A DNA stretch of 64,000 nucleotides, taken from Malacoraja senta. Lineage: Eukaryota. The stretch spans positions 2,358,001 through 2,422,000 of the forward strand of contig CM075992.1 of NCBI GenBank assembly GCA_038087875.1, written 5' to 3'. The notes beneath the pieces are model-generated. The model searched no databases. It was given only the letters and a program-made list of their open reading frames with translations, and was not told the DNA's origin. Positions 10,676 to 55,701 of this stretch are shown here, piece after piece (positions within the stretch are counted from its first letter, which is position 1; each line of letters starts with the position of its first letter). A program made the translations under genes and the position numbers.

Positions 10676-10684
10676 TTCACTGCC

Positions 10685-11573: not shown

Positions 11574-11619
11574 CTGTGAAAAGAAAGAAAATGCATTAGA
11601 GTTAAGCAAATTAAGCAGA

Positions 11620-15974: not shown

Positions 15975-16440
15975 GTATAACAGTTTGATAACAGTTTGGT
16001 ACAGCAGTTTAGACACTCACTCCCGTAATAAACTACAGCGCATTGTCAACAAAGCATCCAAAATCATCAGCACTCCCCTCCTGTCAATAGAATCACTCAA
16101 TCTCAAACGGTCCGTGTCATGGGTGAAGAAAATCATTTCTGATCCCTCCCACCCAGCTCACCACATCTTCCACCTGCTGCCGTCAGGAAGGCGCTACAGC
16201 TCACTGCCCGCCAAAACATCACGATTTAAAAACAGTTTCTACCCATATGCAATTCGAACTCTGAACACTCTATGACAACATCACATAGCCACCTCGTGCA
16301 TGTACTGTATACTGTATGTTGTTGTGTTTTATGTTATGTTTGACGGGAATCAGCCTATTGTGTAACATCCTGTACTGAACATGAATTCCACCAGCTTGAC
16401 TGTGTGGTCATTAAATAATCTGAATCTGAATCTGAATCTG
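15975..16440 (+). mobile_element. Rex1/Babar LINE 3' fragment, present only in the left arm
   Basis: ITVWYSS..KLQRIVNKASKII..DPSHPAHHIFHLLPSGRRY..RFKNSFYP; (AATCTG)n tail; interrupts a SINE tail. Confidence 0.85.
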
Positions 16441-17279: not shown

Positions 17280-17596
17280 ATGGTGGTGCAGCGGTAGAGT
17301 TGCTGCCATACAGCGCTTACAGCGCCGGAGACCCAGGTTCGATCCTGTCCACGGGTGCTGGCTGTACGGAGTTTGTACCTTCTCCCCGTGACCTGCGTGC
17401 GTTTTCTCCGGGAGCTCCGGTTTCCTTCCACACTCCAAAGATGTACAGGTTTGTAGGTTAATTGGCTTGGTCAAATTGTAAATTGCCCATAGTGTGTGTA
17501 GGATAGTGTTAGTGTGCGGGGATCACTGGTCGGTGCGGACTCGGTGGGGCTGAAGGACCTGTTTCTGCCTGTATCTCTACACTAAACTAGACTAAA
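17280..17596 (+). mobile_element. Chimeric HE1-type SINE marking a deletion junction
   Basis: 5' part and flank match the SINE at ~45195-45505; 3' part and flank match the SINE at ~41640-41916; switch within GAGACCC at 17328-17334. Confidence 0.85.
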
Positions 17597-19239
17597 TCGG
17601 ATAATACTATACATGAATTCAATCAGGCCAAACTCAAGTACAATAGGAAGAGCAAGAGAAAGGTGCAGAGTGCAGAATATGGTTCTCAGCATTGTAGCGT
17701 AAGTTCCAGAATAAAAGTCCTATGTCCAGAAGCATGACTTCTGCATGTGAAAGGCGACAATATCAGAATTAATGTGTAGGTAGGAACTGCAGATGCTGAT
17801 TTACACCGAAGATAGACTATACATGCTTACAATCGAGCCATTTACAGTGTCTAGGTACTGGATAAGGGCAATAACATTTAGTGCAAGATAAAGTCCAGTG
17901 AAGGAAGGATCTCGACCCAAACTGTCGCCTATCCGTGTTCTCCATGTGATAAGGAATAGGAGCAGAATTAGGCCATTCGGCCCATCAAGTCCTTTCAGTG
18001 ATGACTGTCTTGCTGAGTTACTCCAGCGTTTTGTACCTTTCCTTGGTAAACCAGCATCTGCAGTTCCTTATTTCTACTTATCCAGCCTGGATTTGCTTTG
18101 CCAATCAAAGCAGCCAAACAACTTTAGCCAACAGAGCTTGGCTATGAAGAGAATGTTATTTATGATAAGATATTGATGATGATTAGCTGGAAATTCATTT
18201 CTTGTGGGACGAGGCGCTACTGTCAAAACAAATCAATATTTCTTCCTGTGCATCTGTGCTTTATGTCAGGAAAAAGGAAAATGACATATTTTATTTGCAT
18301 CCATTGAGAATATTGTGTTATGCAAGCCCCTTTGATGCTAAATTTCTTTCCTGTTGTAATGACTTTGATGCCAAGAATCAGAGGAGTTTTCTAGTGTCAT
18401 GACAGCGAATTCCCAACACAAAGTTCCTACATGGAACATACACATTAGTTCCTTTCACATAAGATAGACACAAAAAGCTGGAGTAACTCAGCGGGACAGG
18501 CAGGCAGCATTTCTGGAGAGGAGGAATGGGTCGAGACCCTTCTTCAGACCCTCGACCCGAAACGTCACCCATTCCTTCTCTCCAGAGATGCTGCCTGTCG
18601 CACTGAGTTACTCAGTCTGAAGAAGGGTTTTGGCCCAAAACGTTGCCTATTTCCTTCACTCCATAGATGCTGCCGCACCCGCTGAGTTTCTCCAGCACTT
18701 TTGTCTACCTTCGATTTTCCAGCATCTGCAGTTCCTTCTTAAGCACTGAGTTACTCCATTATTTTGTGTTTATCTTCGCTGTCAACCAACATCTGCAGTT
18801 CCTTCCTCCACAGTTCCTTTCACATGCCCAGCACAGTAATTTAATTACTTTTTTATGACTAGTTACAGTTATTTTGTAAGCAGAGACTGATGGTAGATCA
18901 CATGTTTGCTCGTTAATAGGAAGAAAAGCCAACAACTGTGTGGACATTCCTAATTATAGGAACAATTTACTGAGATCTTGGCTACTCTTATAGTCAGTGC
19001 CACTTTCCTGCCTGACCCCATAACGTTGCTGTGAAGACCAAGTTCAGGCCAAGGTTTCCAATTTCCTGAGCTGTCATTGTCATCAAAACTGGCTTCCATT
19101 TCCCAAAGATAGACACAAAAAGCTGGAGAATAGTTCTCATTCCGCTAACATGCAGAATATGGTGGTAGCGCAACAGCTCCAGGATAAAAGTCTAATGTCC
19201 GCATCACTTCTGCATGTGAAAGACAACATTAACAGAATT

Positions 19240-19875
19240 AAAGGTAGACAAAAATGCTGGAGAAACTCAGTGGGTGAGGCAGCATCTATGGAGTGAAGGA
19301 AATAGGCAACGTTTCGGGTCGAGGCCCTTCTTCAGACTGATGTGAGGATGGGGGGGGGGGGAGGCGGGAAGAAGAAAGGAAGTGGCGGAGCCAGTGGGCT
19401 GAGGGAGAGCTGAGAAGGGGAGGAGAAAGCAGGGACTACCTGAAATTAGAGAAGTCAATGTACATACCGCTGGGGTGCAAACTGCCCAAGCGAAATATGA
19501 GGTGCTGCTCCTCCAATTTATGGTGGTCCTCAGTCTGGCCATGGTGGAGTCCCAGGACAGAAAGGTCGGATTCGGAATGGGAGGGGGAGTTGAAGTGCTG
19601 GGCCACCGGGAGATCAGGTAGGTTAATGCGAACCGAGCGGAGGTGTTGGGCGAAGAGATCGCCAAGCCCACGCTTGGTCTCACCGATGTAGAGCAGCTGA
19701 CATCGAGAGTAGCGGATGCAATAGATGAGGTTGGAGGAGGTGCAGGTGAACCTCTGTCACACCTGGAAAGACTGCTTGGGTCGTTGAATGGAGTCAAGGG
19801 GGGAGGTAAAGAGAGAAGTGTAGCATTTCCTACGGTTGCAAGGGAAAGTGCCGGGAGAGGGGGTGGACGAATTGA
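19240..19875 (-). mobile_element. Penelope-like element 3' part: GIY-YIG endonuclease remnant plus pseudo-LTR (duplicate at ~24977-25610)
   Basis: Minus strand reads PGTFPCNRRKCYT...FTCTSSNLIYCI...YIGETKR...HFNSPSH..DLSVLGL...LEEQHLIFRLGSLHPSG, followed by CTGAAGAAGGGCCTCGACCCGAAACGTT. Confidence 0.88.
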
Positions 19876-22800
19876 CCAGGGAAGGGACGAATTGATCCCT
19901 GGTCATTTTGTCCCTTCCCACTCAAACCACCCACTCTCCTGGCACTTTCCCTTGCAACCACAGGAAATGCTACACTTGTCGATCCCCACCTCTAATCTTG
20001 TTTTCAAGCGTCATTCTATTGAGCAATTACAAGTGGCTTGGGCCAGGGCCCTGCTGAGCTACTGTTCTTTAGCTCAGGCGATTGAGTCATACATGGCACC
20101 ATGCAGATAAACTGCTCAGAGTTGCTGCCGTCAGCAGTTAAGGGAAGTTAAAAGTTCAGTCATATTTATTCATCAGATCGCTTGTCCTCAGAGCAGTGGG
20201 CTCAACTTTCCTGGTTTAGCGAGCCGTACGTGAGCTAGTCTTCCAGTCCTGATCTCTGTTGACAATGTCTATGTTTAGTTTAGTTTCATTTAGAGATACA
20301 GCACGGAAATGGGCCCTGCGACCCATCGGGTCAGTGCAGACCATCGAGCACCCCTTCACACTAGTTCTATGTTGTGCCCCGTTCCCATCCACTCCTTACA
20401 CACCAGGCTTGGAACAATTTACAGCGGACAGTCAACCTACAAAGCTGCAAGCCTTTTGGATGTGGGAGGAAACAAGAACATCCAGAGGAAACCCATGCAG
20501 TCCAATGGAGAACGTGCAAACTCCACACAGACAACATTCGAGGTCAGGATTGAACCTGAGTCTGTGAAGCTGCAGCTCTATGGCTGTAGTGCTGTGAATG
20601 TTTGGACAGATACATAGATACGAAATTTGGAGGGATAAGGGCCAAACGTGGGCAGGTGGGACTGGTGTAGATGGGGCACCTTGGTTGGGGTTGGCAAGTG
20701 GAGCTGAAGGCCCTGTTTCCATGCTGTCTGATTCTATGATTCACTGACTACCTGCATTGATGTCAAATAATAAACAGTAGTTTGTTTCAGTGTGAGAGTT
20801 TCTGCCATGGAATAACCTGCTGATATACAATAAACCCTTTCATATGAAGAACTGCAGAGTTTTAATGTTGGATTCATCAACATCTAGAACACCAGGGAGT
20901 AAGGCCATAAGCTCATAAGTGATAAGAGTAGAATTAGGCCATTCGACCCATCAAGTCTACTCCTCTATTCAATCATGGCTGATCTATCTCTCCCTCCTAA
21001 CCCCATTCTCCTGCCTTCTCCCCATAACCTCTGACACCCGTACTAATCAAGTATCTACCTATCTCTGACTTTAAAATATCCATTGACGTGGCTCCATGGC
21101 TGTTAACAGAATGTTATTGTTTAGTGGTGGGGGAATTTAATGCAGAACTAGGGAGGTAGCACTTCAGATATAGAGAGCATTGGTGAGACCACATCTGGAG
21201 AACCGTGCAAAGTATCGGTCTCCTACTTCATTGGAAGTGGTTTAAAGAAAGTTTATTACAGCCTTCTGAGACAAAGGTGTTGGGTGAAAAGGAAATTCCT
21301 TTTATTCAAGTAAACAATTCAGTCTGCAGTCATCAGATTTTTAGCACTAATGACTGCTTATTATTAGAATATACCAAGGATGTTTAAAGATCAAGGATGT
21401 GTCGGAAACACAACACACTCAGCCTCATTCGATTGATCAAACCGATAACATACAGAATGAAGAAGGGTCTCGACCCAAAACGTCACCCATTCCTTCTCTC
21501 CAGAGATGCTGCCTGTCCCGTTGAGTTACTCCAGCATTTTGTGTCTATCTTCAGTTTAAACCAGTATCTGCAGTTCCTTCCAAAAATACAGAATACATCA
21601 GGATTACCCTTTTGTTAATACAGGAAAATAAAGTTGTTTTGATCAGAAACATTTATTTCAGATATTCCTGTGGGGAGTGAAATCTGAAAACTTGTAAACA
21701 TTCAGAGAATTAGCGAATCTTACAGCCTCAGAGATGGTCATGCTCGTTCTGTTTGGGTTCAATGGCTCAGTGGTCGTATGTACCTAGGTTCAGTGAAATT
21801 CCTTTCGTGCATATCCTTCAGTAAATATCTTATTCTACATAGGCACAATCATATATAGGTCCAAGAGTAGAAACAGGAAACAAGGAACTGCAAATGCTAG
21901 TTTACAAAAAAAAAAAGACACAGTGCTGGAGTAACTCAGCATCTCTGGAGAACATGGACAGGTGACGTTTCGGGTCTGGACCCTTCTTCAGACTTATTGA
22001 AAGGGGGGGGGGCAGTAGTGGTGCAGAAAGAAAGCTGTAAGAGAGGAGGAGGCAGGGACAAAACCGGACATGTAATAAGTTGAAGATAGACACAAAAAGC
22101 TGGAGGAGCTCAGCAGGTCAGGCAGCATCTTTGGGGAAAAGGAATAGGTACATCACATTATCCTTTTCTCCATAGATGCTGCCTGACCTGTCGAGACCCT
22201 TCTTCACACTCGACCTGAAACGTCACCAATTCCTTTTCTCCAGAGATGCTGCCTGACCCTCTGAGTTACTCCAGCTTTCTGTGTCTATCTTCGGTTTAAA
22301 CCAGGATCTGCAGTTCCTTCCTACACATGTAATAATCTGTTGATACAGGTGAGGGGGGTTATTTGATAGGCAATGGTTGGACAAGGCTAAAAATGAAAAG
22401 AGAGACGGTGTGAGACAAAAGGATTTCAGAGTTGCGAAATGTGAAGCTGGAGGAAGGAATGTAGGTGTGAGGGAGGGGGAGGGGAGAAGTGGGTGTAAGT
22501 CCAGGCGGGGGACAGGAAGTGGGGAGAAGGGGGTTGGAAAGAAGAGGATTACATGGGGGAAGAAGAGAGAGGTGAAGACTATTCTGAGGACTCGCAGAAT
22601 GATAGAGTTATAGAGTCATAGAGTGATACAGTGTGGAAACAGGCCCTTCGGCCCAACTTGCCCACACCGGCCAACACATCCCAGCTACACTAGTCCCACC
22701 TGCCCGTGCTTGGTCCATATCCCTCCAAACCTATCCTATCCATGTATTTACGATTTAATGAGAACAGAGGGAACAATAATAAATCTTCTGGCCCTCTCCT

Positions 22801-24118
22801 TTTCCCAGGAGCAGCTGCCAGATCACCTATCCTACATTTCCAATCAGTCACCTCCATGTTGATAGATATTTGGTGCAGGCAGCTTGACATTTTACATTGT
22901 TGACAGCCATCCTTTGAACTGACTCAGCACCAGATTCTTGTTCTTAACCTTTTAATCTTCAGTTTTCATTAATTGAAACAATATGTACTATTTAATAACT
23001 GGTGGAGAGCTTCAGTTGGCAGAGTTCCTGGTTGGCAATGAAGTAGAGATTCTCCGGGGCTTTAAAATGGGTGTCAACATGGAAGATAGAACATTACAGC
23101 ACGGGAATGGGCCCTGCAGCCCACAATTTTCATGCTGAAAAATTATGCCAAGTTAAAACTGGTCTCTTCTGCCTGTACGTGATCCATATCCCTCTATTCC
23201 CTGCAGTCACATGTGCTTCATAAAATACCAATATTGTATCTGCCTGCACCACCACCCCTGGCAATGCGTTCCTAGACCCCACCACTCTCTGCGTGAAAAA
23301 TCTTGCCCCGCACATCTCCATGGCACTCTTGATAGACACAACATGCTGGAGTAACTCAGCGGGACAGGCAGCATCTCTGGAGAGAAGGAATGGGTGACGT
23401 TTCAGGTCGAGACCCTTCTTCAGACTGAGTCAGGGGAGAGGGAGACCAGAGATATGGAAGGGTAAGGTGTGAAATTGACAGATCAAAGCAGATGCTGATA
23501 AGGAAATGTAGAATGGTTTATTGATAGCTGAGGGGAAGGTGACAACGAGGCATACAAACAGTAGAACTAGTCGGAGAACTAGGATGGGGGAGGGATGGAG
23601 AGAGAGGGAACGCAAGGGCCCCTAGCTTATGCACTCCATTGGCAGGGATTACTCCGGCCACTAGAGGGAGCTTGAACCCCTGTTCTGCAGCAACCCACAA
23701 CACAATGAATACATCCTGCATATTTAGCATGAGAACATTCCTAAAGTCTTCACTGAAGTTTTATTAAACAATATTTGGAAATTTCTGGGCTGATTGTCCA
23801 AACTTGGACAACGAGGTCAGTTTTAAATTGGTTTAAAGGGAGTGCAGTTGTGCAGGGAGTGGTGATCTAAGTTCAATTCCAACCTCCCATGCTGTCTGTG
23901 TGGAGTTTGCACGTTCTTCTGTGTGTGCTTGGGTTACCCTCGATGCTCCAAGTTCTTTCCAGGTCCCCAAAGCAAGATGGTCGGTAGATTAATTAGCTGC
24001 TGTGAATGATCTCTGGTGCAGGTGAACAGTGGGTAAATCAGAGGGTGACAATGGGCATCTAGAGAGGGCAGATTGCAGGGAAATACATGGAGGAATGGGG
24101 TTAATAGGGTGGCTCAGG

Positions 24119-42478: not shown

Positions 42479-42545
42479 ATGGATGCGGGACTCACGCCGT
42501 GGGCTGGATACGTTTACATTTTGTCCTCGTTGTTCACTGTGGCAG
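42479..42545 (+). CDS. ICAM/VCAM-family gene exon 1 (signal peptide MDAGLTPWAGYVYILSSLFTVA)
   Basis: ACTATGG Kozak context, hydrophobic leader, phase-1 donor CAG|GTACCT that joins exon 2 in frame. Not in the ORF track. Confidence 0.75.
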
Positions 42546-44382
42546 GTACCTGTGGCGAGGCTGCGCTGTTTTTCAGGTTGTGATCTGACCGCGGTTACCG
42601 GTAACACAGAGGGGGCTGTGGTCATTTGTGCTCAGATGCTGGGGGTTTGGGTTGGCTGGAGCTGGTTCTTGGTGGGAGAAAACTTGTCCATGGCGTCGCC
42701 GACCCCCACCCCCCTCTCCCCCTCTCCCACCCCAGTTCCCCTTCATCTCTGGCAGAACCGACACCCTGAACTGGCCACTGATTTATCGTCGCTTCTAACA
42801 GGGAGATTCTCGGGTCCGGACCGCAGTTGGAGTTTAGAAACATGGAAAACAGGTGCAGGAGGAGGCTATTTGTCCCTTCGAGCCAGCACCGCCATTCATT
42901 GTGATCATGGCTGATCATCCACAATCAGTAACCCATGCCTGCCTTCTCCCCATATCCCTTGATTCCACTAGCCCCTAGAGCTCTATCTAACTCTCTCTTA
43001 AATTCATCCAGTGATTCTCTTTTAAATTAATCCAGTGAATTGGCCTCTGCTGCCTTCCGTGGCAGAGAATTCCACAAATTCACAACTCTCTGGGTGGAAA
43101 AGTTTCGTTTATAGACACACAAAATGCTGGAGTAACTCAGCGGGGTTAGGCATCATCTCTGGAGAACATAGAGAGTGACTTTATTGGTCAGGACCCGTCT
43201 TCATATTGAATGGCGGTGCTGGCTCGAAGGGCCGAATGGCCTATTACTGCACCTATTTTTTATATTTCAGACTGAGAGTTTAGTTTAGTTTATTATCAAA
43301 GGTTTAATGTCGAGGTCCAGTGGAAAGCTTCCACGTCCTGATTCATATTCAGGTCCAGTGAAAGGTGAAATATTTACAGGGATGGAGTTACAGGGACGGG
43401 GTGGCTGTTCTAATGTAAAACACAAAGTGCTGGAGGAACTCGGCGGGTCAGGCTGCGTCTATGGAGGGAAATGGTCGGGCAACGTTTCGGGTCGGGACCC
43501 TTCAGACTGACGGAGAAGGATGATGGGGTGGGGTGAGGAAGCTGGAAAAACGACCTCATGCTTCATCAGAAAGGTCCCGATCTGAAGCGTCGTGTGTCCG
43601 CTCCCTCCACAGACGCTGCCTGAGCCGCTGAGTTCCTCCAGCAACTGCGTTTAGCGCAAGGAGCACCTTGAGCGGTCACGGTGGCGCTGCGGTAGAGTTA
43701 TAGTTGCTGCCTATACAGCGCTTGCAGCGCCGGAGACCCGGGTTCCATCCCCACTACGGGTGCTGCCTGGACGGAGTTTGTACGTTCTCCCCGTGACCTG
43801 CGTGGGTTTTCTCCGAGATCTTCGGTTTCCTCCCACACTCCAAAGACGTGCAGGTTTGTAGATTAATTGGCTTGATTAATTTGCCTGATAAAATGTAAAA
43901 TTGTCCAGAGCTGAGTCTCTGTAGCGTTCTACATCCAGATAGACACAAAATGCTGGAGGAACTCAGCGGGACAGGCAGCATCTCTGGAGAGAGAAGGAAT
44001 GGGTGACGTTTTGGGTCGAGACCCTTCTTCAGTACAACTTCTCACCAGAGATGCTGCCTGTCCCGCTGAGTTACTCCGGCTTTTTGTGTCTATCTTCGGT
44101 TTAAACCGGCATCTGCTGTTCCTTCCTACACACCCTTCAGCAACAGACTGGTTCCACCAAGATGCAGCACAGAATGCCACAGGAGATCCTTTTTCCTTGT
44201 GGCTATCAAACTGTACGACTCAGGGAGAATCTTACAGACAGCACCTGTAGTCAGGATCGTCTCTGGCGCTGTGAGGCAGCAACTCTACCGCTGCGCCAAT
44301 GTGCTGCCCTTGGATTTTCATTATCTATTATCTGTACTACATTTAACGTGATTTGTTCTCTTGTCCAACATTGTGACTACAG

Positions 44383-44631
44383 ATACAGTATTGATCAAAG
44401 CAGAACCGTCTGCTGTGGAATTTGGACGTCCTTTGGTGGTGAACTGCAGTTCATCTTGTGTAGCAACAAATATATTAATGGAAGGAAGGAGAGGATCTAA
44501 TGAAACCAAACAGCCTGAGTGGTTGGCATATTCTTTCTCGACAGTTACGTCGTGGTATCTTCGAATGTATTGCTCTGTGACCTGCTCATCTGGGAAAAGG
44601 GATTCCCTGGACACAATAATTCCTGTCTACA
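44383..44631 (+). CDS. ICAM/VCAM-family gene exon 2 (N-terminal four-cysteine Ig domain)
   Basis: TACAG| acceptor and |GTAAGT donor; DTVLIKAEPSAVEFGRPLVVNCSSSC..ILMEG..W......MYCSVTC..IPVY; paired CxxxC motifs typical of ICAM/VCAM/MAdCAM domain 1. Confidence 0.92.
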
Positions 44632-46304
44632 GTAAGTACAAGAATTTCTCTTCAGCTTTTTTTTCCACAAGGAATAGCTCCACTCAATAACCAAAAATCT
44701 GTAGCCTCCTTTTGCTCTGGTATTATATTCAATTCACATGTTTAATCAATAATGTTTTATTATTAATGTTTAATGTTTTATGTATCATTCCTAACTGTCA
44801 CTGTATGTCATGTTGTCACTTGTGGGTGGAGCACCAAGGCAAATTCCTTGTATGTGAATACTTGGCAAATAATCTTATTCATTCATTCATTCATTCACAC
44901 AAAGGTGGAATTGCCAATGTCTCTCACGGTTTCCAGTAATGAGAGGCTATAGAACCCAAGGGCACAGCCTCAGAATTAAAGGAGGTATCTTCAGATGAGG
45001 AAGAATTTTTTCAGCCGGGGAGGTGCAATGGTGGAATTCACTGCCACTGATGGCGGTGGAGGCCAAGTCATTGGGTATTTTTAAAGCAGAGGTTGACAGG
45101 TTCTTGATTATTAAGGGCGTCAAAACTCACAGGGGGAGAAGGCAGATGAGATTGAATGGGAAAAATAGATCAGACTGAATGGCGGAATAGACTTTAGTTT
45201 AATTCAGAGATACAGCTCAGAAACAGGCCCTTCGACCCACCGAGTCCGCACTGACCAGCGATCCCAGCACACTAACACTATCCGACACACACTAGGGACA
45301 ATTTACATTTATACCAACCCAATTAACCTACAAACCTGTACGTCTTTGGAGTGTGGGAGGAAACCCGAGGATCTCTGAGAAAACCCACGCAGGTCACGGG
45401 GAGAACGTACAAACTCCGTACAGACAGCACCCGTAGCCAGGATCGAACCCGGGTCTCCGGCGCTGTAAGCGCTGTGTGGCAGTAACTCGACCGCTGCACC
45501 ACCATGCCGACCAATGGGCTGAATGGCCTAACTCTTCCTGTGTAATGGTCTTATGGACAATGCTTGTTTTAAATCTGATATAAGCTTGCGTTGATGATCT
45601 GCCGCAGTGTGGTAGAAGGAACCACTCAAATTAACCCCGATTCCAGATAACAATACACAATGTCAACAACTAAAGGAGAGGCAAAGGTTACAGACCCACT
45701 TGAGTTTTTTTACAGCAATGAAACAGAAACCAAAGAATAAGGGGTAAGCCATTTAGAACTGAGATGAGGAAACACTTTTTCTCACAGAGAGTGGTGAGTC
45801 TGTGGAATTCTCTGCCTCAGAGGGCAGTGGAGGCGGGTTCTCTGGATGCTTTCAAGAGAGAGCTAGATAGGGCTCTTAAAAATAGCAGTCAGGGGATATG
45901 GGGAGAAGGCAGGAACGGAGTACTGATTGGGGATGATCAGCTTTGATCACATTGAATGGTGGTGCTGGCTCGAAGGGCCGAATGGCCTACTCCAGCACCT
46001 ATTGTCTACTGTCTATTATCTATTAAGTGTGTTGGTAATTTCAAAGCATTTAATGATGGGCCATCTTGTTTGTTCCCTGCAGATGCCTCTGGGAACTTTA
46101 ACTTTATATCCGTTTTTAGTGTGCTGTCATAAACCTGGTGTGACAAAGTGAGGCAGGAAGTGTGTGCCTGTCATGTGCCTTTGCAATAAGTGAATCTGGG
46201 TCACATATTGTGTTTGTGGACTGGCTGTAGATCTTCTCTGCATCAGATACAGAGGATTTCCTGAGAACACTGAACGGAACAGCACAGTTTAGCTTAGTTT
46301 AGTT

Positions 46305-46538
46305 ACGGTACTAATTACGGTAATAGCCGCTCGTAGGTACTCGGGGCTCTCGGGGACATTTTTCAACATGTTGTAAAATCTTCACGAGTCTTCACGAGCT
46401 TACCGAGTACCTGCCGTTAGCGTTACAAGCCGCTAAGAGGCGTCCCGATCTCCGACGTACCCGCTACATTCTACATGCTTACCACGAGTTAGATTTTTTA
46501 AATAAACTCGGGAGAGCTCTTGAATTGGGACAGGCCCT
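46305..46538. mobile_element. One-ended Harbinger-like MITE, present only in the right arm
   Basis: Ends GGGACAGGCCCT|TA; internal sequence is the reverse complement of the 32764 element's 5' part. Confidence 0.75.
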
Positions 46539-47221
46539 TAAGGATAATTTACATTTATACCAAGCCATCCACATCGACGTGCGATCCCCGCACATTTGTA
46601 TCTCTAAATGAAACCAAAACTAAACTACACACAAGCATGGCCCAACCAAAGGGCTGCATCATGACTTCCTTGTGAGGAAGGATTGTCGATATAGGGTTGG
46701 TCCTGAGTTTGACTATCCACGTTACAACCCCTGTGCCTCGTTGATCTCAATGCTTTGTGACATCAATTAGCATTGCCTATAAATATATTTGCTGAAGAGA
46801 GCTCAATGTGTAAAAATAGAAGTTTTATTGTAACGCACGGGGATGGCACTTACTGTAATTACTTATCATAGAATAAAAATACAATCCAGATGTGTTTCCC
46901 ACAACAGATGTGACTGAACCATCCATGGTGTATTGGTCGGTCAGTCAAGCAGTCCCAGTGACGGCTGGGTCACCCTTTCAAGCTGCATGGCAGCACAGGG
47001 GTTAACGCAGCTGCATGACAGCTCCCAACCTCGCAGCATCCATGCATTCCCAGGAACATGTGCTGCCTGTGTGGAGTTATAGAGTCAGAGAGTTTAACAG
47101 TGAGGAAACAGGCCCTTCACCCCAACTTGCCCACACCGACCAACATGTCCCAGCTACACTAATCCCACCTGCCTGCCTTTGGTCCATATCCCTCCAAACC
47201 TGTCCCATCCATGTACCTGTC

Positions 47222-47574
47222 CCATCCAGGGACGACAGATGGCGCAATGGGCTAAGTGTTCGGCTGGCAACCGGAAGGTAGCCGGTTCGAATCCCGCTTG
47301 GAGTGCATACTGTCGTTGTGTCCTTGGGCAAGACACTTCACCCACTTTTGCCTGCGTGTGAATGTGTGTGAATGTGTGTGAGTGATTGGTGGTGGTCGGA
47401 GGGGCCGTAGGCGCAGATTAGCAGCCACGCCTCCGTCAGTCTGCCCCAGGGCAGCTGTGGCTACAGAAGTAGCTCACCACCACCGAGTGTGACTGAGAAT
47501 GAATAATGCGATGTAAAGCGCCTTGAGTATTAGAAAGGCGCTATATAAATCCCATCCATTATTATTATTATTAT
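47222..47574 (+). mobile_element. tRNA-derived SINE with CORE-like middle and L2-type tail, present only in the right arm
   Basis: A box TGGCGCAATGG, B box GGTTCGAATCC, GTGTCCTTGGGCAAGACACTT, tail TGTAAAGCGCCTTGAGTATTAGAAAGGCGCTATATAAAT..(ATT)n; TSD TACCTGTC (47214-47221, 47575-47582). Confidence 0.85.
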
Positions 47575-50460
47575 TACCTGTCTAACTGTTTCTTAAACGT
47601 TGGGATAGTCCCAGCCTCAACTACCTCCTCTACACCCACCACCCTTTGTGTGAAAAAGTTACCTCTCAGATTCCTATTAAACCTTTTCCCCTTCACCTTG
47701 AACCTACAGTGTGTCCTCTGGTCCTTGATTCCCCTACTTTGGGCAAGAGATCTGTGCATCTTCCCTCAGTATAGTAAACGCTCATAATAACGGACCACGT
47801 TTCGGGGGTGGGGGGATGGTGCCCGTTATTGCCGATTGTCTGCTATAACCGGGTGAGGGGGGGGGGGGGGTAAAGTTTAACCCAGGGGTGTGAGGGAAGA
47901 AATGCGGCGTTGCAGAGGGGGTTAAACAAGCAGGAATTCACGGGGCAGGGAGCCGCAGAGACCCCGGCCCCTCATGCAGAGAGCTGGGGACGTGTCCAGT
48001 ACTCACTCTGTCTTCATGCTGCTCACTCACTCCCCTCCCAAAGCTGAACCAGATGCTCCCATCACCAACAACAAGGTACAATATGTGTACCAGCACCAAT
48101 AGACAGTAGACAATAGGTGCAGGAGTAGGCCATTCGGCCCATTCAATGTGATCATGGCTGATCATCCCCAATCAGTACCCCGTTCCTGCCTTCTCCCCAT
48201 ACCCCCTGACTCCGCTATCTTTAAGAGCCCTATCTAGTTCTCTCTTGAAAGTATCCAGAGAACCGGCCTCCACCGCCTTCTGAGGCAGAGAATTCCACAG
48301 ACTCACAACTCTCTGTGTGAAAAAGTGTTTCCTCATCTCCGTTCTAAATGGCTTACCCCTTATTCTTAAACTGTGGTCCCTGGTTCTGGACTCCCCCAAC
48401 ATCGGGAACATGTTTTAGCTACCAAACACATTTTAGCTACCGAAAAAAGCTCCGATCTCCTCAGTCCAATAAAAACCCAGAGCATGTTAAACTAGTGGCC
48501 ATGAACAATTCTTAAGTGATGCAGTAGTGACCTCTCCTGCTTCAACACACTGGTTGTGGTATAACTATTTAGACAACTATTTCAGATAAGCCTGTTCCAG
48601 CAGCCCCACGTTAATGGAGTCGATTGTGTCTAAAAATACTGACACAGGATCTCGTTTTCTCTTATCTGCAGCTCAGATGACATAAAGTGTTTAGTTTATT
48701 TATCCAGAGGAAATGGGTTGCCAGAGGAACACATTTTTGCTGTTAGAGCTCTTTTTAAACAAGATTGTTGAAAGTTAAATCAGTGCTGCCTCCTCACCCT
48801 TCCATCCCTCACATAATTCCTTCCCTGATTACAATATCCTGACCATTATTATTTCATAATATAGTTCATATTTTTCATGTAAATGATACCGCAATCATTC
48901 TAACTTTTAATTTATTTCCTGATTATAAAATTGTGACCATTATAATTCCATAATGTTTGGATTATTGGAGTGTTTATTTGGAGTATTGCTTGCAGTTCTG
49001 GTTGCCCCTTTACAGAAAGATGCAGAGGCTTAGTTTAGTTTAGAGATACAGCACGGAATCAGGCACTTTGGCCCACTGGGTCCGCACCAACCAGTGATGT
49101 CTGCAAACTAACTCTATCTACACACACTAAGGACAATTTACATTTATACCAAGCCATCCACATCCACCAGCGATCCCCGCACATTAACACTATTCCACAC
49201 ACTAGGGACAGTTTACATTCGTACGGAGCCAATTAACCCACATATCTGTACACCTTTGGAGTGAGGGAGGCAATCGAAGATCTCGGAGAAAACCCACGTG
49301 GTCACGGGAAGAACGTACAAACTCTGTACAGACAGCACCCGTAGTCGGGTTCGAACCCGGGACTCTGGTGCTGTAAGTTAGCAACTCTACCGCTGTGCCA
49401 TCGCGCTGCCCTTTGGAGTAGGTTTAGCAGAATGCTGCCTGGATTGGAGGTTTTTAGCTATAGGGAGAGGTTGGATAGACTTGGACTTCTTTCTTTGGAA
49501 CGTAGGAGGTTGAGGGGTGACTTGATAGATGTATACACAATTATGAGAGGCCATACAGTCAGAACCTTTCTCCCAGGGTGGAAATGTCTTATACTAGGGG
49601 GCGTAACTATAAGGTGAGAGGTGGGAAGTTTAATAGAGATGTGTGGGGCAAGTTACATTTTACACAGAGAGTGCTGGGGGCCCAGAACACATTGCCGAGG
49701 GTGGTGGTGGAGGTAGATGCGATAAAAACATTTAGGAGGCTTTTGGATAGGCATAAGAAAGTGCAGGGAATAGAGGGATATGGATCATGTACAGGCAGAT
49801 GAGATCAGTTTCAATTTGGAATCATGTTGGGCACAGACATCGTGGGCTGAAGGGCCCGTTCCTGTAATGTTCTATGTTCTATAATATAGTTAATATTTTC
49901 ATCTAATAGATACCTCAACCATTCTAACTTTGGTCTTACTAAATAATCTATAATACCCATTTGTGGAAAAACATACACCTCTAGTTCAGTTCAGTTTAGT
50001 TCATTGTCACGTGTCTCGAGCTACAGGGAATAGCTTTTGTTACGTGCTAACTAGCCAGTGGAAAGACAATACATGATTACAATCGAGCCTTTTACAGTGT
50101 ACAAATATATGAAAAGGGAATAACATTTAGTGCAAGGTAAAGCCAGCAAAGTCTGATCAATGATAGTCTGAGGGTCATCAATGTTGTAGATCGTAGTTCA
50201 GCACTGATCACTGGTTACACTTGGCTTCCTATTAAATCTTTCCCCCCCTCACCTTAAACCTATAAACTGGAATAGAAAATTAAGAGGGCATATTTGACAA
50301 TGGGTTTTAGTGAATGGAAGTTCTGTTGCACGTTGACTCTATTTTGAATCTTCAGTGAAACATGTTCAAATACAGGCAGGTTCGATGATTACTGTCAACA
50401 GTCCTTTAACACATCGTAATGCCTCGATGATTACTGTCCATTGCGATTGTATTTCAACAG

Positions 50461-50775
50461 ATCGAGAGTTGAACATTACTTCCCCTCCTGAAGTGTTGGA
50501 AATTAATACAACATATAGCCTGGAATGCACTGGCCCCAGGGTCTATCCTAACAATAAGCTCATACTCAAATGGCAAAGAGGAAACGAGATCATCCAGACC
50601 AATTCCACAGAAGAAAAAGGTATCCTGAATGAGGATAAACGATTAAGGAATGTCTTACAATTTACTGCAAGGACTACGGACGATGGACAGGTTTATACCT
50701 GCGTGGCAGAAGTAGACCTAGGCTCCAACACCACTTTGCAAATCACAAACTCCTCCGTGACCTTGCAAACTTACC
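50461..50775 (+). CDS. ICAM/VCAM-family gene exon 3 (Ig domain 2)
   Basis: CAACAG| acceptor, |GTAAGT donor, phase 1/1; YSLECTGPRVYPNNKLILKWQRGNE...FTARTTDDGQVYTCVAEVDL resembles ICAM/VCAM domain 2. Confidence 0.93.
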
Positions 50776-51434
50776 GTAAGTTACCTTTGAATAAATGTTA
50801 GGTAGACATAAATGCTGGAGAAACTCAGCTGGTGAGGCAGCATCTATGGAGCGAAGGATGGGTGACGTTTCAGGCCTCGACCCGAAACGTCACCTATTTC
50901 CTTCGCTCCATACATGCTGCCTCACCCGCTGAGTTTCCCCAGCATTGTTGTCTACCTTTGAATAAATGCTAGTTGGTTCATTTTCTTTATTATACCAGAG
51001 TAGTGATGGAACTTATGACAGAAGTCTCGGATGCTACTATGATGTTTACCCCAGCAATTAGTAATCGGTACAATGTAAAGATGATCAATTCAAACTGGCA
51101 TCAGGACAGAGAAGCATTATGGACCAACTCTGATATGGTGTGAGAATCATGGAGCTAGCATCTACACACCTACACACAATAGGGACAATTTTGTTTTTTA
51201 CATTTTATACCAAACCAATTTATATACAAACCTGTACGTCTTTGGTGTGTGGGAGGAAACCGAAGATCTCGGAGAAAACCCACGCAGGTCATGGCGAGAA
51301 CGTACAAACTCGGTACAGACAGCACCCCTAGTCGGGATCGAACCCGGGTCTCTGGCGCTGTGAGGCAGCAACTCTACCCCTGCGCCACCCTGCTTAATTT
51401 GCTTAACTTTAATGCATTTTCTTTCTTTTCACAG

Positions 51435-51713
51435 GTGAACCTCGAAGCACAATGATATCAGTAAATAACCAAAGCTCATCAGAGTCTCCAGTGCATGTGG
51501 CTGGTGGGGACAGCGTCACCTTAGTCTGTGATACACTGGGGAACCCAGAGCCAACATTAAAATGGGAATACCCTGAAAGTACCAACATTGCAATCAATAC
51601 TTCCGCAGTCCTCTATATTTCTGAAGCCACGACGGAAAATAATGGAATATACAAATGTACTGCTAGCAATAAATATGGAGCTGATGAGAACAAAGTGGAG
51701 ATCAAAGTGAAAG
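51435..51713 (+). CDS. ICAM/VCAM-family gene exon 4 (I-set-like Ig domain 3)
   Basis: Polypyrimidine tract + ACAG| acceptor, G|GTCAGT donor; GDSVTLVCDTLGNPEPTLKW...LYISEATTENNGIYKCTASNKYG. Confidence 0.94.
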
Positions 51714-51861
51714 GTCAGTTTAAAAACGATGGCTGTTGATTAAAATACTTACCTTCATCCCTACAAATTAAACTGATGCCAAAAGGAAATCAGCCGCAAC
51801 ACCGGTTCCTAGTTTTCTTTTGTTTTAGTTTCTGTCGAGGGGACCCTGCAACGGTCATAAG

Positions 51862-53747
51862 AGTAGGGAAAATAGATTATGAAAGAAAACTGGCAGGGAA
51901 CATAAAAACTGACTGCAAAAGTTTTTATAGATATGTGAAGAGAAAAAGATTAGTTAAAACAAATGTAGGTCCCTTGCATTCAGAAACTGGTGAATTGATC
52001 ATGGGGAACAAGGATATGGCAGACCAATTGAATAACTACTTTGGTTCTGTCTTCACTAAGGATGACATAAATAATCTGCCGGAAATAGCAGGGGACCGGG
52101 GGTCAAATGAGATGGTGGAACTGAGTGAAATCCCGGTTAGCCGGGAAGTGGTGTTAGGTAAATTGAATGGATTAAAGGCCGATAAATCCCCAGGGCCAGA
52201 CAGGCTGCATCCCAGAGTACTTAAGGAAGTAGCCCCAGAAATAGTGGATGCATTAGTGATAATTTTTCAGAACTCTTTAGATTCTGGTGTAGTTCCTGAG
52301 GATTGGAGGGTAGCTAATGTAACCCCACTTTTTAAAAAGGGAGGGAGAGAGAAAACGGGGAATTACAGACCAGTTAGTCTAACATCGGTAGTGGGGAAAA
52401 TGCTAGAGTCAGTTATTAAAGATGGGATAGCAGCACATTTGGAAAGTGGTGAAATCATTGGACAAAGTCATCATGGATTTATGAAAGGTAAATCATGTCT
52501 GACGAATCTTATAGAATTTTTCGAGGATGTAACTAGTAGAGTGGATAAGGGAGAACCAGTGGATGTGTTATATCTGGACTTTCAAAAGGCTTTCGACAAG
52601 GTCTCACATAAGAGATTAGTATGCAAAATTAAAGCACACGGTATTGGGGGTTCAGTATTGATGTGGATAGAGAACTGGCTGGCAGACAGGAAGCAAAGAG
52701 TAGGAGTAAACGGGTCCTTTTCAGAATGGCAGGCAGTGACTAGTGGGGTACCGCAAGGCTCAGTGCTGGGACCCCAGCTATTTACAATATATATTAATGA
52801 CCTGGATGAGGGAATTGAATGCAACATCTCTAAGTTTGCGGATGACACGAAGCTGGGGGGCAGTGTTAGCTATGAGGAGGATGCTAGGAGGCTGCAAGGT
52901 GACTTGGATAGGTTGGGTGAGTGGGCAAATGCATGGCAGATGCAGTATAATGTGGATAAATGTGAGGTTATCCACTTTTGTGGCAAAAACAGGAAAGTAG
53001 ACTATTATCTGAATGGTGGCCGATTAGGAAAAGGGGAGATGCAACGAGATCTGGGTGTCATGGTACACCAGTCATTGAAAGTAGGCATGCAGGTGCAGCA
53101 GGCAGTGAAGAAAGCGAATGGTATGTTAGCATTCATAGCAAAAGGATTTCAGTATAAGAGCAGGGAGGTTCTACTGCAGTTGTACAGGGTCTTGGTGAGG
53201 CCACACCTGGAGTATTGCGTACAGTTTTGGTCACCGAATCTGAGGAAAGACATTCTTGCCATAGAGGGAGTACAGAGAAGGTTCACCAGACTGATTCCTG
53301 GGATGGCAGGACTTTCATACGAAGAAAGACTGGATAGACTCGGCTTGTACTCGCTAGAATTTAGAAGATTGAGGGGGGATCTTATAGAAACTTACAAGAT
53401 TCTTAAGGGGTTGAACAGGCTAGATGCAGGAAGATTGTTCCCGATGTTGGGGAAGTCCAGAACAAGGGTAAGGGGGAAGTCTTTTAGGACCGAGATGAGA
53501 AAATCATTTTTCACGCAGGGAGTGGTGAATCTGTGGAATTCTCTGCCACAGAAGGTAGTTGATGCCAGTTCATTGGCTATATTTAAGAGGGAGTTAGATG
53601 TGGCTCTTGTGGCTAAAGGGATCAGGGGGTGTGGAGAGAAGGCAGGTACAGGATTCTGAGTTGGATGATCAGCCATGATCATATTGAATGGCGGTGCAGG
53701 CTCGAAGGGCCGAATGGCCTACTACTGCACCTATTTTCTATGTTTCT
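51862..53747 (+). mobile_element. Young 5'-truncated CR1 LINE with uninterrupted RT reading frame, in intron 4, present only in the right arm
   Basis: About 600 open codons (KSPGPD, NYRPVSLTS, YLDFQKAFDKV, GVPQGSVLGP, KFADDTKL); flanked by ATAAG direct repeat (51857-51861, 53748-53752); empty site at ~11140-11150. Confidence 0.96.
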
Positions 53748-54215
53748 ATAAGTGATCGGAGCAGAAGTAGACCATTCGGCCCATCAAGTCTACTCCGCAA
53801 TTCAATCATGGCTGATCTATCTCTCCCTCCTAACCCCATTCTCATGCGTTCGCCCCATAACCTCTGACACATGTACTAATCAAAAAGCTATCTATCTCTG
53901 CCTTAAAAATATCCATTGACTTGGTCTCCACAGACTTCTGTGGCAATTAATTCCCCAGATTCACCACCCTCTGATTAAAGAAATTCCTCCCCATCTCCTT
54001 TCTAAAGGTGTGTCCTTTAATTCTGAGGTTTTGCCATCTGGTCCTAGACTCTCCCACTAGTGGAAACATCCTCCCCACAACCACTCTATCCAGGCCTTTC
54101 ACTATTCGGTACGTTTCAATGAGGTCCCCCCTCATCTTTCTAAACACCAGCGAGTACAGGCCCAGTGCTGTCAAACACTCATAGTCCCACTCATTCCTGG
54201 GATCCAGGCTGTGAA

Positions 54216-54346
54216 GCTGATGAGAACAAAGTGGAGATCAAAGTGAAAGGTCAGTTTGAAAACTTGATGTCTGTTGATTAAAATACTTACCTTCATCCCA
54301 ACAAACTAAAAGTCTGCCAAAAGCAAATCAGCCTAAACACCGGTTC
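54216..54346 (+). repeat. Diverged intronic duplicate of exon 4 3' end, donor and intron start (source 51680-51808)
   Basis: GCTGATGAGAACAAAGTGGAGATCAAAGTGAAAG|GTCAGT...CACCGGTTC repeated. Confidence 0.9.
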
Positions 54347-54933
54347 AACAAGAGTGAGTGAAAGATCAGACGTTCCCCCACACCACTCACAACTCCTGGC
54401 TTCAAACGTGCTTCACTGTCCCACCCGTCACCATCGAACCATTCTGTCCAACTATACATTCTCACCCACTTGTGTGTGACAGGTCTACAATACCGTGCGC
54501 TGCAATGCCAGAGTATAGTCATACAGCACGGAAACAAGCCCTTTGGCCCATCTTGTCCATGCCGACAAAGATGCCCCAGCCCACCGACCCCAGTTAGAAG
54601 GCCTCTATCCTTCCCAACTGTTCCTATCTATTATGTATTGTCCAGAACAATAACCACAACAGTGGTTGTGTGAAGTAATGAAACAGTGATTTACTAACTA
54701 ACTTTGAACAGGGTACATCACCCTAACCTACGTAAAATGGCTGCAGTCTAACAAACGGTGTCCTAGCCGAGTCCCGCACAAGTCCCGTGATTGAACGGTG
54801 TTCCCAAACTACCGTGCCCGCACACACCCGTAACATTCCTGGCCGGCAGGGACGCCAGAGCTCACACACGCAAGATGCCGGTGCGTAAACAGAAACTGAT
54901 GTGAAAGTTAAGCAGCACCGTGGCGCAGTGGTA

Positions 54934-55066
54934 AGGGCCTGTCCCACTTGGCTGTCATTTGCGTGCCATTTACGCGACCTCGTCGCGTTGTGATGCACGG
55001 GTAGCGCGTGGATGACGCGCGAAGGGCGCATGGTGAGGCGTGGATGCGTATGGAGTTGCGCGCGAT
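54934..55066 (+). mobile_element. 133-bp Harbinger terminal fragment between two 80-bp direct repeats (54854-54933, 55067-55146)
   Basis: Reverse complement of 9825-9957. Confidence 0.92.
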
Positions 55067-55130
55067 GCCAGAGCTCACACATGCAAGATGCCGGTGCGTA
55101 AACAGAAACTGATGTGAAAGTTAAGCAGCA

Positions 55131-55418
55131 CCGTGGCGCAGTGGTAGAGTTGCTGCCTTACAGCACCAGAGACCTGGGTTCGATCCTCACTACGGGTGCT
55201 GTCTGTACGGAGTTTACACTTTCTCCCGGTGACCACGTGGGTTTTCTCTGGGTGCTTCGGTTTCCTCCCACACTCCAAACGCGCGCACACTTGTAGGTAA
55301 TTGGCATCGGTAAGAATTGTAAATTATCTCTCGTGTGTAGGATAGTGTTAGTGTGTGGGGATTGCTGGTCAGCACGGACTCGGTGGGCCCATTTACATGC
55401 TGTATCTCTAAACTAAAC
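55131..55418 (+). mobile_element. HE1-type V-SINE (its left-arm counterpart is the Harbinger insertion site)
   Basis: CCGTGGCGCAGTGGTA|GAGTTGCTGCC head, V-domain, TAAACTAAAC tail. Confidence 0.88.
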
Positions 55419-55537
55419 TGCAAAGAACAAATATCTGCCTTACATAAGATTAACATTTGTCTTCAAATTAATTATTGTTGAAATAGATTATACTGTAGTT
55501 AGCTTTACAAATCATTTTGTTCTGATTATCTCTACAG

Positions 55538-55701
55538 ATAAATCCGCGATCATCATAGGAGTAAGTGTAACGGCACTGGCCACAGCAACCCTTGCAAGTG
55601 GGGCGGTTATTTATTACTTGTACCAAAAGGCTCAGAAATCACAAGAATACAAATTACGGAATGCAAAGCCTCGCAACAATCCACAGGTGCTCAGCGGATA
55701 G
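55538..55701 (+). CDS. ICAM/VCAM-family gene exon 5 (TM and cytoplasmic tail, stop)
   Basis: TCTACAG| phase-1 acceptor; DKSAIIIGVSVTALATATLASGAVIYYLYQKAQKSQEYKLRNAKPRNNPQVLSG*; tail resembles ICAM-1 YLYNRQRKIKKYRL. Too short for the ORF track. Confidence 0.9.

What the first reader, a model, noticed from the sequence alone, without database searches (positions are those of the whole stretch)
42479..55701. Complete three-Ig-domain ICAM-like adhesion gene in a probable cartilaginous fish
Seen: five exons with canonical phase-1 splice sites join into a 1074-nt frame (357 aa), and two of them are absent from the ORF track. Known: CxxxC/CxxxC in domain 1 marks the ICAM/VCAM/MAdCAM family. ICAMs bind integrin I-domains through a Glu (ICAM-1 LGIETP), whereas VCAM-1 and MAdCAM-1 use an Asp (IDSP/LDTS). 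Here the equivalent position reads ILMEGRR, and the tail YYLYQKAQKSQEYKL parallels ICAM-1 YLYNRQRKIKKYRL. Inference: an ICAM-type beta2-integrin ligand with a 3-domain layout and a non-canonical motif after the Glu, relevant to the early evolution of leukocyte adhesion.
Basis: partly seen in the sequence, partly recalled or inferred. Interest (0 to 1): 0.7.

Follow-up and report, generated by a model that had tools for sequence, protein, structure and literature searches.

The report
Skate three-domain ICAM-family adhesion gene
This is an intact skate gene for a cell-surface adhesion protein of the ICAM family, one of many similar genes already annotated in sharks and rays; it probably helps white blood cells stick to other cells, and it has a broken inverted copy nearby.

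Summary
The gene model is right. Five AG/GT phase-1 exons give 1074 nt and 357 aa. One contig from a related species, in a run only guessed to be RNA, spans all five exons with no extra Ig exon. RefSeq orthologues have the same layout: Amblyraja and Leucoraja (87%) and Pristis.

Domain 1 is Pfam ICAM_N. Glu56 aligns with the integrin-binding Glu of ICAM-3 and ICAM-5, but 1-2 positions off in ICAM-2. It is present in 88 of 88 shark and ray domain-1 copies. The family falls on the ICAM side of a tree; sharks have a separate VCAM1, and grouping with it is rejected (AU p=0.0005).

What is not special: the family is expanded in cartilaginous fish (254-1424 aa). Teleost ICAM-like proteins also lack ETSL after the Glu, and the exact motif is not kept among skates. 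The three-domain form equals domains 1, 2 and the last domain of longer paralogues.

Integrin binding is inferred, not shown. Ordinary; modest interest.

The parts
42479..42545 (+). Exon 1 coding part: start codon and 22-aa putative signal peptide; transcribed 5' region reaches at least 42355 in a relative
   Evidence: 19-20 of 22 residues identical in skate orthologues; signal peptide inferred from hydropathy and position, no predictor run
44383..44631 (+). Exon 2: Ig domain 1 (ICAM_N type, two disulfide pairs), the fastest-diverging exon
   Evidence: Pfam ICAM_N 30.4 bits; best PDB sequence hits ICAM-3 D1 and ICAM-2; AF2 pLDDT 86.7; 57-58 of 83 identical to skate orthologues
44481..44483 (+). 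Codon of Glu56, the predicted integrin-MIDAS-binding residue at the end of strand C
   Evidence: aligned to ICAM-3 E37 and, by family profile, to the ICAM-5 Glu; 88 of 88 family domain-1 copies; second-to-last residue of strand 27-34 in the model
50461..50775 (+). Exon 3: Ig domain 2 (ICAM D2-like), highly conserved in the family
   Evidence: 97-98 of 105 identical to skate orthologues
51435..51713 (+). Exon 4: Ig domain 3, an I-set domain equivalent to the membrane-proximal domain of longer paralogues
   Evidence: Pfam I-set 52 bits; 126-147 bits to the last domain of three longer paralogues
55538..55701 (+). Exon 5 coding part: transmembrane helix, basic juxtamembrane tail with a Glu-Tyr-x-Leu motif, stop codon; AATAAA at 55967
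51862..53747 (+). Reverse-transcriptase (CR1-type LINE, family name inferred) fragment in intron 4, absent from the inverted copy
   Evidence: RVT_1 112.7 bits; gap between the two arms
54208..54249 (+). Partial duplicate of the 3' end of exon 4 with its donor site; could act as a 42-nt in-frame cassette with a free Cys; no evidence of use
   Evidence: skipped in X2 and X6 contigs of relatives
9825..23425 (-). Inverted segmental duplicate of 34483-55066: a truncated pseudogene lacking exons 1, 2 and 5
   Evidence: 254 substitutions in 12142 aligned columns (2.1%), against 10 in 5521 for the overlap across the N gap
12234..12548 (-). Pseudo-exon 3 in the inverted copy, with one premature stop
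11295..11573 (-). Exon 4 copy in the inverted duplicate, frame open

Best explanation
An intact, spliced skate gene for a 357-aa type I membrane glycoprotein of the ICAM family: signal peptide, ICAM-type domain 1, ICAM-type domain 2, one I-set stalk domain, transmembrane helix and a short basic tail. It is one member (the short-loop, Glu-Gly-x-Lys/Arg type) of a multigene family expanded in cartilaginous fish. Most likely mechanism: Glu56 at the end of strand C completes the Mg2+ coordination of the MIDAS site in the inserted I domain of a leukocyte (beta2-class) integrin, as ICAM-1 E34 and ICAM-3/5 E37 do; domains 2-3 act as a glycosylated stalk; the tail ties the protein to cortical actin through ERM proteins. 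Shown: gene structure, splicing in relatives, family placement, conservation of the Glu. Inferred: integrin binding, which integrin, ERM binding, cell type.
For: Gene structure. Family: Pfam ICAM_N above cut-off. A family domain 1-2 profile scores ICAM-2 72.5 bits, ICAM-5 45.5, VCAM-1 35, ICAM-1 29.8, and lists no MAdCAM-1 among 25 sequences at E<=10. Foldseek ranks ICAM-3 D1 and ICAM-1 D1 first and second for the domain-1 model (E 5e-3, 1e-2) and ICAM-5 D1-D4 first for the full orthologue model. Tree of 47 domain 1-2 units: all 11 VCAM1 rows, including two shark VCAM1, are split from the family plus bony-vertebrate ICAMs at 100/99; the 17 family rows form one side of a branch at 99/99. Joining the family to shark VCAM1 is rejected, p-AU 0.0005. 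Glu: 88 of 88 family copies, 53 of 82 other domain-1-like copies, while the residues around it vary freely. Shark VCAM1 has an Asp motif instead. ICAM Glu-MIDAS binding: PMC4237329 and PMC7796194 (passages). ERM binding through a basic juxtamembrane cluster: PMC10886500 (passages). Nurse shark spleen myeloid cells express genes labelled Cd11b, Cd11c and Icam3 (PMC10529500, one passage).
Against: No binding data, and no skate integrin sequence was on hand to model a complex. The Glu register is exact against ICAM-3 and ICAM-5 but 1-2 residues off against ICAM-2 in both automatic alignments. The basic residue five after the Glu in ICAM-2, -3 and -5 is Ser here; the short-loop type has Lys/Arg three after the Glu instead (16 of 17 distinct loops), and Amblyraja lacks even that. 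VCAM-1 outscores ICAM-1 in the profile search. The VIA-align second look did not separate ICAMs from other beta-sandwiches (all Z<=7.5). Domain 3 scores 25-54 bits on the VCAM1 I-set domains of its own type too. The tree root is set, not inferred; MAdCAM-1 and mammalian ICAM-1 to -4 were not in it. In 2014 only alphaE was found among leukocyte alpha subunits in Callorhinchus (PMC4237329). No run of the window's own species is on record as RNA.
Confidence: 0.7

Rival explanations
1. An ICAM-family protein whose main partner is not an LFA-1-like beta2 integrin: it binds another I-domain integrin (alphaE-like, or an alphaM/X-like subunit), or a non-integrin ligand, and its fast-changing domain 1 reflects a changed partner or pathogen pressure.
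For: The loop after the Glu differs from tetrapod ICAMs and comes in two types in the family (17 short and 33 long distinct loops). alphaL was not found in Callorhinchus in 2014 (PMC4237329, passages). Exon 2 differs from relatives' contigs at 12-15% of bases, against 2-4% for exons 3-4 and 6-7% for the UTR-bearing exons (Fisher p 0.02 to 5e-7 in 7 of 7 comparisons).
Against: The Glu is invariant while its neighbours vary, as expected for MIDAS binding. Of the 14 listed exon-2 differences (of 22) for run X1, 9 change the residue and 5 do not, about 0.6 per site, which is not above 1. Domain 1 is also the most divergent domain between human ICAM-1 and ICAM-3 (38% vs 77%, PMC10886500, passage). 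In bamboo sharks the excess is small (76-83 of 86).
Confidence: 0.18
2. A separate branch of the ICAM/VCAM/MAdCAM group, as old as the ICAM-VCAM split or allied to MAdCAM-1, rather than co-orthologous to bony-vertebrate ICAMs.
For: The family sits on a long stem (1.17 changes per column), the root was placed by hand, and MAdCAM-1 was not sampled. Domain 1-2-I-set is also how VCAM1 begins.
Against: Rooted on VCAM1, the topology (cartilaginous fish, then teleosts and lobe-finned fish) follows the species tree. The Glu and the tail Glu-Tyr are shared with coelacanth and tetrapod ICAMs. No MAdCAM-1 hit at E<=10 in the profile search.
Confidence: 0.07
3. The skate VCAM1 (as RefSeq names the Pristis orthologue), an alpha4-integrin ligand.
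For: Automatic names 'vascular cell adhesion protein 1' on P0058/P0016 and on many paralogues; VCAM-1 structures score 33-35 bits.
Against: Sharks have a distinct VCAM1 (P0236, P0240) with an Asp motif that groups with bony-vertebrate VCAM1 at 100/99. AU test p 0.0005. None of the family's proteins was among the 110 hits of gar VCAM1b (a word-limited search). No Asp lies in the loop after strand C of the window protein.
Confidence: 0.03
4. A non-functional copy or an assembly artefact in a duplicated region.
For: The window holds a duplicated, broken copy and an unmerged 5.5-kb overlap across an N gap; no RNA run of this species was laid.
Against: Open frame, canonical splice sites, strong conservation of domains 2-3 and tail, spliced contigs in three relatives, and DNA run X19 covers exon 1, part of exon 2 and exon 5 with 0-1 differences.
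Confidence: 0.02

Closest known systems
RefSeq predicted orthologues: Amblyraja radiata XP_032906787/XP_032906788 ('ICAM 2-like' / 'hemicentin-1-like'), Leucoraja erinacea XP_055519990 ('myelin-associated glycoprotein-like'), Pristis pectinata XP_051897885 ('VCAM 1')
   Same: 357-359 aa, same five-part layout, same eight Cys, same Glu; 87% identity for the skates, 66% for Pristis.
   Different: Domain 1 differs at 25-26 of 83 residues from each skate; names are automatic and inconsistent; none is functionally studied as far as my searches show.
Human ICAM-2, ICAM-3 and ICAM-5 (PDB 1zxq, 1t0p, 3bn3, 4oi9)
   Same: Two-disulfide domain 1, ICAM-type domain 2, Glu at the end of strand C, an N-glycan sequon six residues after the Glu as in ICAM-5.
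   Different: No ETSL after the Glu, no basic residue at Glu+5, three domains instead of 2, 5 or more; not a one-to-one orthologue of any of them.
ICAM-1
   Same: Domain 1 fold (Foldseek rank 2); basic tail with Tyr-x-Leu as in bird and turtle ICAM-1-like proteins.
   Different: Lacks the middle D3/D4-type domains, so no counterpart of the Mac-1 site that PMC8417878 (passage) places on ICAM-1 D3; domain 3 here best matches D5.
Teleost and coelacanth ICAM-like proteins (for example Astyanax 'ICAM 5', Latimeria XP_006009121)
   Same: Glu mostly kept without ETSL; repeated domain-1 modules; variable domain number. A 365-aa trout ICAM-1 is published (PMC8417878, passages).
   Different: Separate lineage-specific expansion; many teleost domain-1 copies have a different Cys pattern.
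VCAM1, including shark VCAM1 (P0236, P0240)
   Same: Two-disulfide domain 1, domain 2, I-set domains next, Tyr-bearing basic tail.
   Different: Asp motif further along the loop, Gly-Ser-Tyr tail, separate clade.

Membership tests
ICAM family | Type I membrane protein with N-terminal ICAM_N domain carrying two disulfide pairs | tested here: met
   Pfam ICAM_N 30.4 bits vs cut-off 21; Cys 44/48 and 86/90; model pLDDT 86.7. VCAM1 also matches this model, so it is necessary, not sufficient.
ICAM family | Glu at the end of strand C of domain 1 | tested here: met
   Aligned to ICAM-3 E37 and the ICAM-5 Glu, 1-2 off for ICAM-2; in strand 27-34 of the model; 88 of 88 family copies. No residue-level structural superposition was available.
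ICAM family | Groups with ICAMs, apart from VCAM1, in a domain 1-2 tree | tested here: met
   Split 100/99, AU p 0.0005 against joining shark VCAM1. Unrooted; no MAdCAM-1, no mammalian ICAM-1 to -4; 28 of 75 extracted units were dropped first (16 non-domain-1 units, 12 repeats or near-duplicates).
ICAM family | ETSL-type motif and basic residue five after the Glu (tetrapod ICAMs) | tested here: not met
   Glu-Gly-Arg-Arg-Gly-Ser; also absent from teleost and coelacanth ICAM-like proteins, so it is a tetrapod feature, not a family-wide one.
ICAM family | Basic juxtamembrane tail that binds ERM proteins | tested here: inconclusive
   Basic stretch and Glu-Tyr-x-Leu present; VCAM1 tails look similar; binding not testable.
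ICAM family | Binds the I domain of a beta2 integrin | not testable with these tools
   No cartilaginous-fish integrin sequence was obtainable as a partner; no complex job was run.
ICAM family | Synteny with the ICAM cluster | not testable with these tools
   No genome held; no neighbouring host gene recognised in the window.
VCAM1 | Asp-bearing IDSP-type loop and membership of the VCAM1 clade | tested here: not met
   No Asp in the loop; separate shark VCAM1 exists.
MAdCAM-1 | Asp-bearing loop and mucin-like stalk (features recalled, not from a call) | tested here: inconclusive
   No Asp in the loop, no mucin stalk in the 357 aa; no MAdCAM-1 hit; weak Foldseek rows only; no MAdCAM-1 sequence in the tree.

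The most novel reading that the evidence does not exclude
Cartilaginous fish carry their own, so far undescribed expansion of ICAMs: one chromosome per species, two loop chemistries around an invariant Glu, modular lengths from two domains to more than ten, and continuing birth and death (the inverted pseudogene here). In skates domain 1 changes about twice as fast as the UTRs, as if driven by a pathogen that uses it as a receptor or by a changing integrin partner. If alphaL is truly missing in this lineage, these proteins would be ligands of an older leukocyte I-domain integrin and would show what the ICAM-integrin contact looked like before LFA-1.
Probability: 0.25. Interest if true: 0.55.

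Novelty: new member of a known kind. Interest (0 to 1): 0.27.

Why it matters
As a single gene, little: predicted orthologues are in RefSeq for three batoids. The useful points are comparative. The family is often mislabelled (VCAM1, hemicentin, MAG), and two papers I read in part place ICAM1 at bony fish (PMC7916592) or ICAM1-3 at amniotes (PMC13262535), whereas ICAM-type genes with the integrin-binding Glu, and a separate VCAM1, are both present in cartilaginous fish. That puts the Glu-type and Asp-type ligands apart before sharks and bony fish diverged, if the root lies between them. The short skate protein is a convenient reagent for finding the shark or skate integrin partner.

Tried and rejected
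Whole-genome and synteny check: no genome held; no neighbouring host gene found in the window by reading ORFs or by tblastn with stored proteins; nine long ORFs scanned gave transposon or RT domains (6), the exon-4 copy (1) or nothing (2).

Expression in the window's own species: no RNA holder listed; depth is dominated by repeats and was not used.

Microexon for the 6 extra nt: none in intron 1 under strict or relaxed patterns; an upstream acceptor in relatives is possible but unchecked.

Hidden Ig exons: none.

Positive selection on domain 1: only a partial list of differences was available (14 of 22 for one run); ratio about 0.6, so not shown.

VIA-align second look: not discriminating. Foldseek on domain 1 alone gave no E<=0.001. 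The full-profile PDB search was swamped by generic I-set hits.

The inverted copy as a misjoined allele: rejected, since part of it lies on the same side of the N gap as the gene and it is about ten times more diverged than the gap overlap.

Complex prediction: not run, for want of an integrin partner.

Literature: eight searches listed no paper devoted to ICAM genes of cartilaginous fish; the library lacks most subscription papers, the ICAM-3/alphaL structure paper was not held, and no supplements were read, so genome-paper tables may list this family. Earlier findings of the scan: none returned.

Full report
Observation. The five exons are at 42479-42545, 44383-44631, 50461-50775, 51435-51713 and 55538-55701. 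Every intron has GT/AG ends and phase 1. The joined frame is 1074 nt and 357 aa, with eight Cys, nine N-glycan sequons, an N-terminal hydrophobic stretch and a transmembrane segment at about 305-331. Exon 2 matches Pfam ICAM_N at 30.4 bits (cut-off 21); exon 3 passes Ig_2 and exon 4 passes I-set.

Splicing. No listed run is on record as RNA, but I laid three runs guessed to be RNA and one other on 42300-56100. One 1536-nt contig of X2 covers all five exons in order, with exon 3-4 and 4-5 directly joined and only the diverged last 28 nt of exon 2 unaligned. X1 has a contig over exons 1-3 and X6 one over exons 3-5. These come from related species, not the window's. X1 and X2 carry 6 extra nt at the first joint; Amblyraja isoform X1 has the matching two extra Ala, while Amblyraja X2, Leucoraja and three Logan proteins have the window's form. 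No microexon for them exists in the window's intron 1. No further Ig exon hides in the introns.

Host and relatives. A search with exon 3 among longer proteins returned 53 proteins, 52 of them named and all from cartilaginous fish, 254-1424 aa long, with 0-4 domain-1 copies each. Within a species the entries nearly always share one contig length, consistent with one chromosome; many entries may be isoforms. The closest are 357-aa proteins of Leucoraja and Amblyraja (87%) and Pristis (66%), so the host is most likely a skate. Their automatic names range over ICAM-2-like, hemicentin-like, MAG-like and VCAM1.

ICAM or VCAM. A gar VCAM1b query found two shark VCAM1 proteins and none of this family among 110 hits; their domain 1 has an Asp motif. 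For a tree I extracted 75 domain 1-2 units from 48 proteins and dropped 28 (16 that did not begin with a domain 1, 12 repeats or near-duplicates). In the 47-row tree, all 11 VCAM1 rows split from the rest at 100/99, and the 17 family rows, 8 teleost rows and 11 lobe-finned rows each form one side of a branch. Joining the family to shark VCAM1 is rejected (p-AU 0.0005). The root was set by hand, and MAdCAM-1 and mammalian ICAM-1 to -4 were not sampled. A family domain 1-2 profile scores ICAM-2 72.5 bits, ICAM-5 45.5, VCAM-1 35 and ICAM-1 29.8: ICAM first, but not cleanly. Foldseek ranks ICAM-3 and ICAM-1 domain 1 on top for the domain-1 model, at weak E-values, and ICAM-5 on top for the full orthologue model; VIA-align did not discriminate.

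The Glu. Glu56 aligns with ICAM-3 E37 and, by profile, with the ICAM-5 Glu; against ICAM-2 it is 1-2 positions off in both. It is the second-to-last residue of a strand in the model, and ICAM-1 Glu34 is described on strand C (PMC7796194, passage). It is present in 88 of 88 family domain-1 copies and 53 of 82 other domain-1-like copies, mostly teleost. What follows it is variable. The family has a short-loop type (mostly Glu-Gly-x-Lys/Arg; 17 distinct loops, basic at +3 in 16) and a long-loop type (mostly Glu-Tyr-Lys; 33 loops). Teleosts mostly have WEA and coelacanth WETQM; ETSL appears in tetrapods. So the 'non-canonical motif' is the general non-tetrapod state, and the window's exact letters are not kept in other skates. 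The basic residue at +5 of ICAM-2, -3 and -5 is Ser here. A sequon at +6 is shared with ICAM-5, whose complex with the alphaL I domain is solved.

Three domains. Domain 3 matches the last, membrane-proximal domain of longer paralogues at 126-147 bits, and best matches the last domain of ICAM-5, coelacanth and five-domain ICAM-1-like proteins; it also matches VCAM1 I-set domains at 25-54 bits. The protein is thus domain 1, domain 2 and a stalk domain, without the ICAM-1 D3/D4-type middle. The same layout occurs in several sharks. Whether it is ancestral or reduced cannot be told from this.

Tail. The basic stretch and Tyr are shared by ICAM and VCAM1 tails; Glu-Tyr resembles coelacanth, bird and ICAM-5 tails, against Gly-Ser-Tyr in 5 of 5 VCAM1 shown. 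ERM binding through a basic juxtamembrane cluster is established for ICAM-1 to -3 (PMC10886500, passages) and inferred here.

Mechanism. Most likely Glu56 completes the metal site of a leukocyte integrin I domain, as for ICAM-1, -3 and -5 (PMC4237329, passages), supporting leukocyte adhesion. The partner is open: that 2014 paper found only alphaE among leukocyte alpha subunits in Callorhinchus, while nurse shark myeloid cells express genes labelled Cd11b, Cd11c and Icam3 (PMC10529500, one passage). Nothing here tests binding.

Fast domain 1. Against skate orthologues, domain 1 is 57-58 of 83 identical, domain 2 97-98 of 105, and domain 3 88 of 93 or 84 of 92. In contigs of relatives, exon 2 differs at 12-15% of aligned bases, against 2-4% for exons 3-4 and 6-7% for UTR-bearing exons. 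A partial list gives 9 residue-changing and 5 silent differences, about 0.6 per site, so positive selection is not shown; relaxed constraint or exchange with a paralogue fit too. The excess is small in bamboo sharks, and domain 1 is also the most divergent between human ICAM-1 and -3 (PMC10886500).

Positions 9825-23425 on the minus strand are an inverted duplicate of 34483-55066, 2.1% diverged. It keeps exon 3, with a premature stop, and exon 4. Exons 1-2 are deleted between two SINE-like repeats, leaving a chimeric one; exon 5 is absent; the 1.9-kb RT fragment of intron 4 is absent. Its left end lies in the end of a DNA transposon whose other parts (DDE_Tnp_4, MADF) lie at 4-9.6 kb. Positions 18591-24118 and 24319-29849 are nearly identical across the N gap and look like an unmerged overlap.

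Verdict. Real, intact and correctly read: an ICAM-family gene, not VCAM1, and an ordinary member of an annotated family. Eight literature searches listed no study of this family, within a library that lacks most subscription papers; papers were read as passages only, and no supplements. Two papers date ICAMs later than cartilaginous fish (PMC7916592, PMC13262535, passages), which gives the family some comparative value. Novelty: new member of a known kind. Interest 0.27.

Noticed in passing
window 9825-23425 (minus) vs 34483-55066: Large inverted segmental duplication, 2.1% diverged, holding a truncated pseudogene of this gene; exons 1-2 lost between two SINE-like repeats that left a chimeric copy at about 17240-17620.
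   Followed up: yes
window 18591-24118 and 24319-29849, N gap 24119-24318: Two 5.5-kb stretches with 10 substitutions in 5521 columns flank the gap: probably an unmerged contig overlap, so an assembly artefact.
   Followed up: partly
window 54935-55066 and about 4300-9956: Intron 4 holds only about 130 bp of a DNA transposon end (after TAA), followed by a repeat of about 75 bp of upstream sequence; in the inverted copy the same end runs on towards MADF and DDE_Tnp_4 ORFs (Harbinger-like, name inferred). The duplication breakpoint falls in this end, hinting at transposon-mediated rearrangement.
   Followed up: partly
window 54208-54249 (duplicate 54212-54346 of 51676-51808): A copy of the end of exon 4 with its donor, preceded by an AG: a possible 42-nt in-frame cassette adding a free Cys near the membrane. 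Skipped in relatives' contigs; use in this species unknown.
   Followed up: partly
window 51862-53747: RT fragment with a 639-codon open frame in intron 4, present in the gene and absent from the inverted copy.
   Followed up: partly
window 44497 and 44517 (run X19): A DNA run nearly identical to the window shows a second, lower-depth contig with two other letters in exon 2, the same letters as in the three relatives' contigs: a second allele, a further paralogue or an assembly by-product.
   Followed up: no
P0221 (Solea senegalensis): A teleost ICAM-like protein is fused in one gene model with angiopoietin-related protein 6; that gene lies near the human ICAM cluster (recalled, not checked), a possible synteny lead.
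   Followed up: no
P0001-P0013, P0062: Shark paralogues with two to four tandem domain-1 modules, some mixing short-loop and long-loop types in one chain; they may be real multivalent ICAMs or gene models fused across a tandem array.
   Followed up: no
window 6866-7667: Broken DUF659-bearing transposase-like ORFs inside the 4-10 kb transposon region.
   Followed up: no
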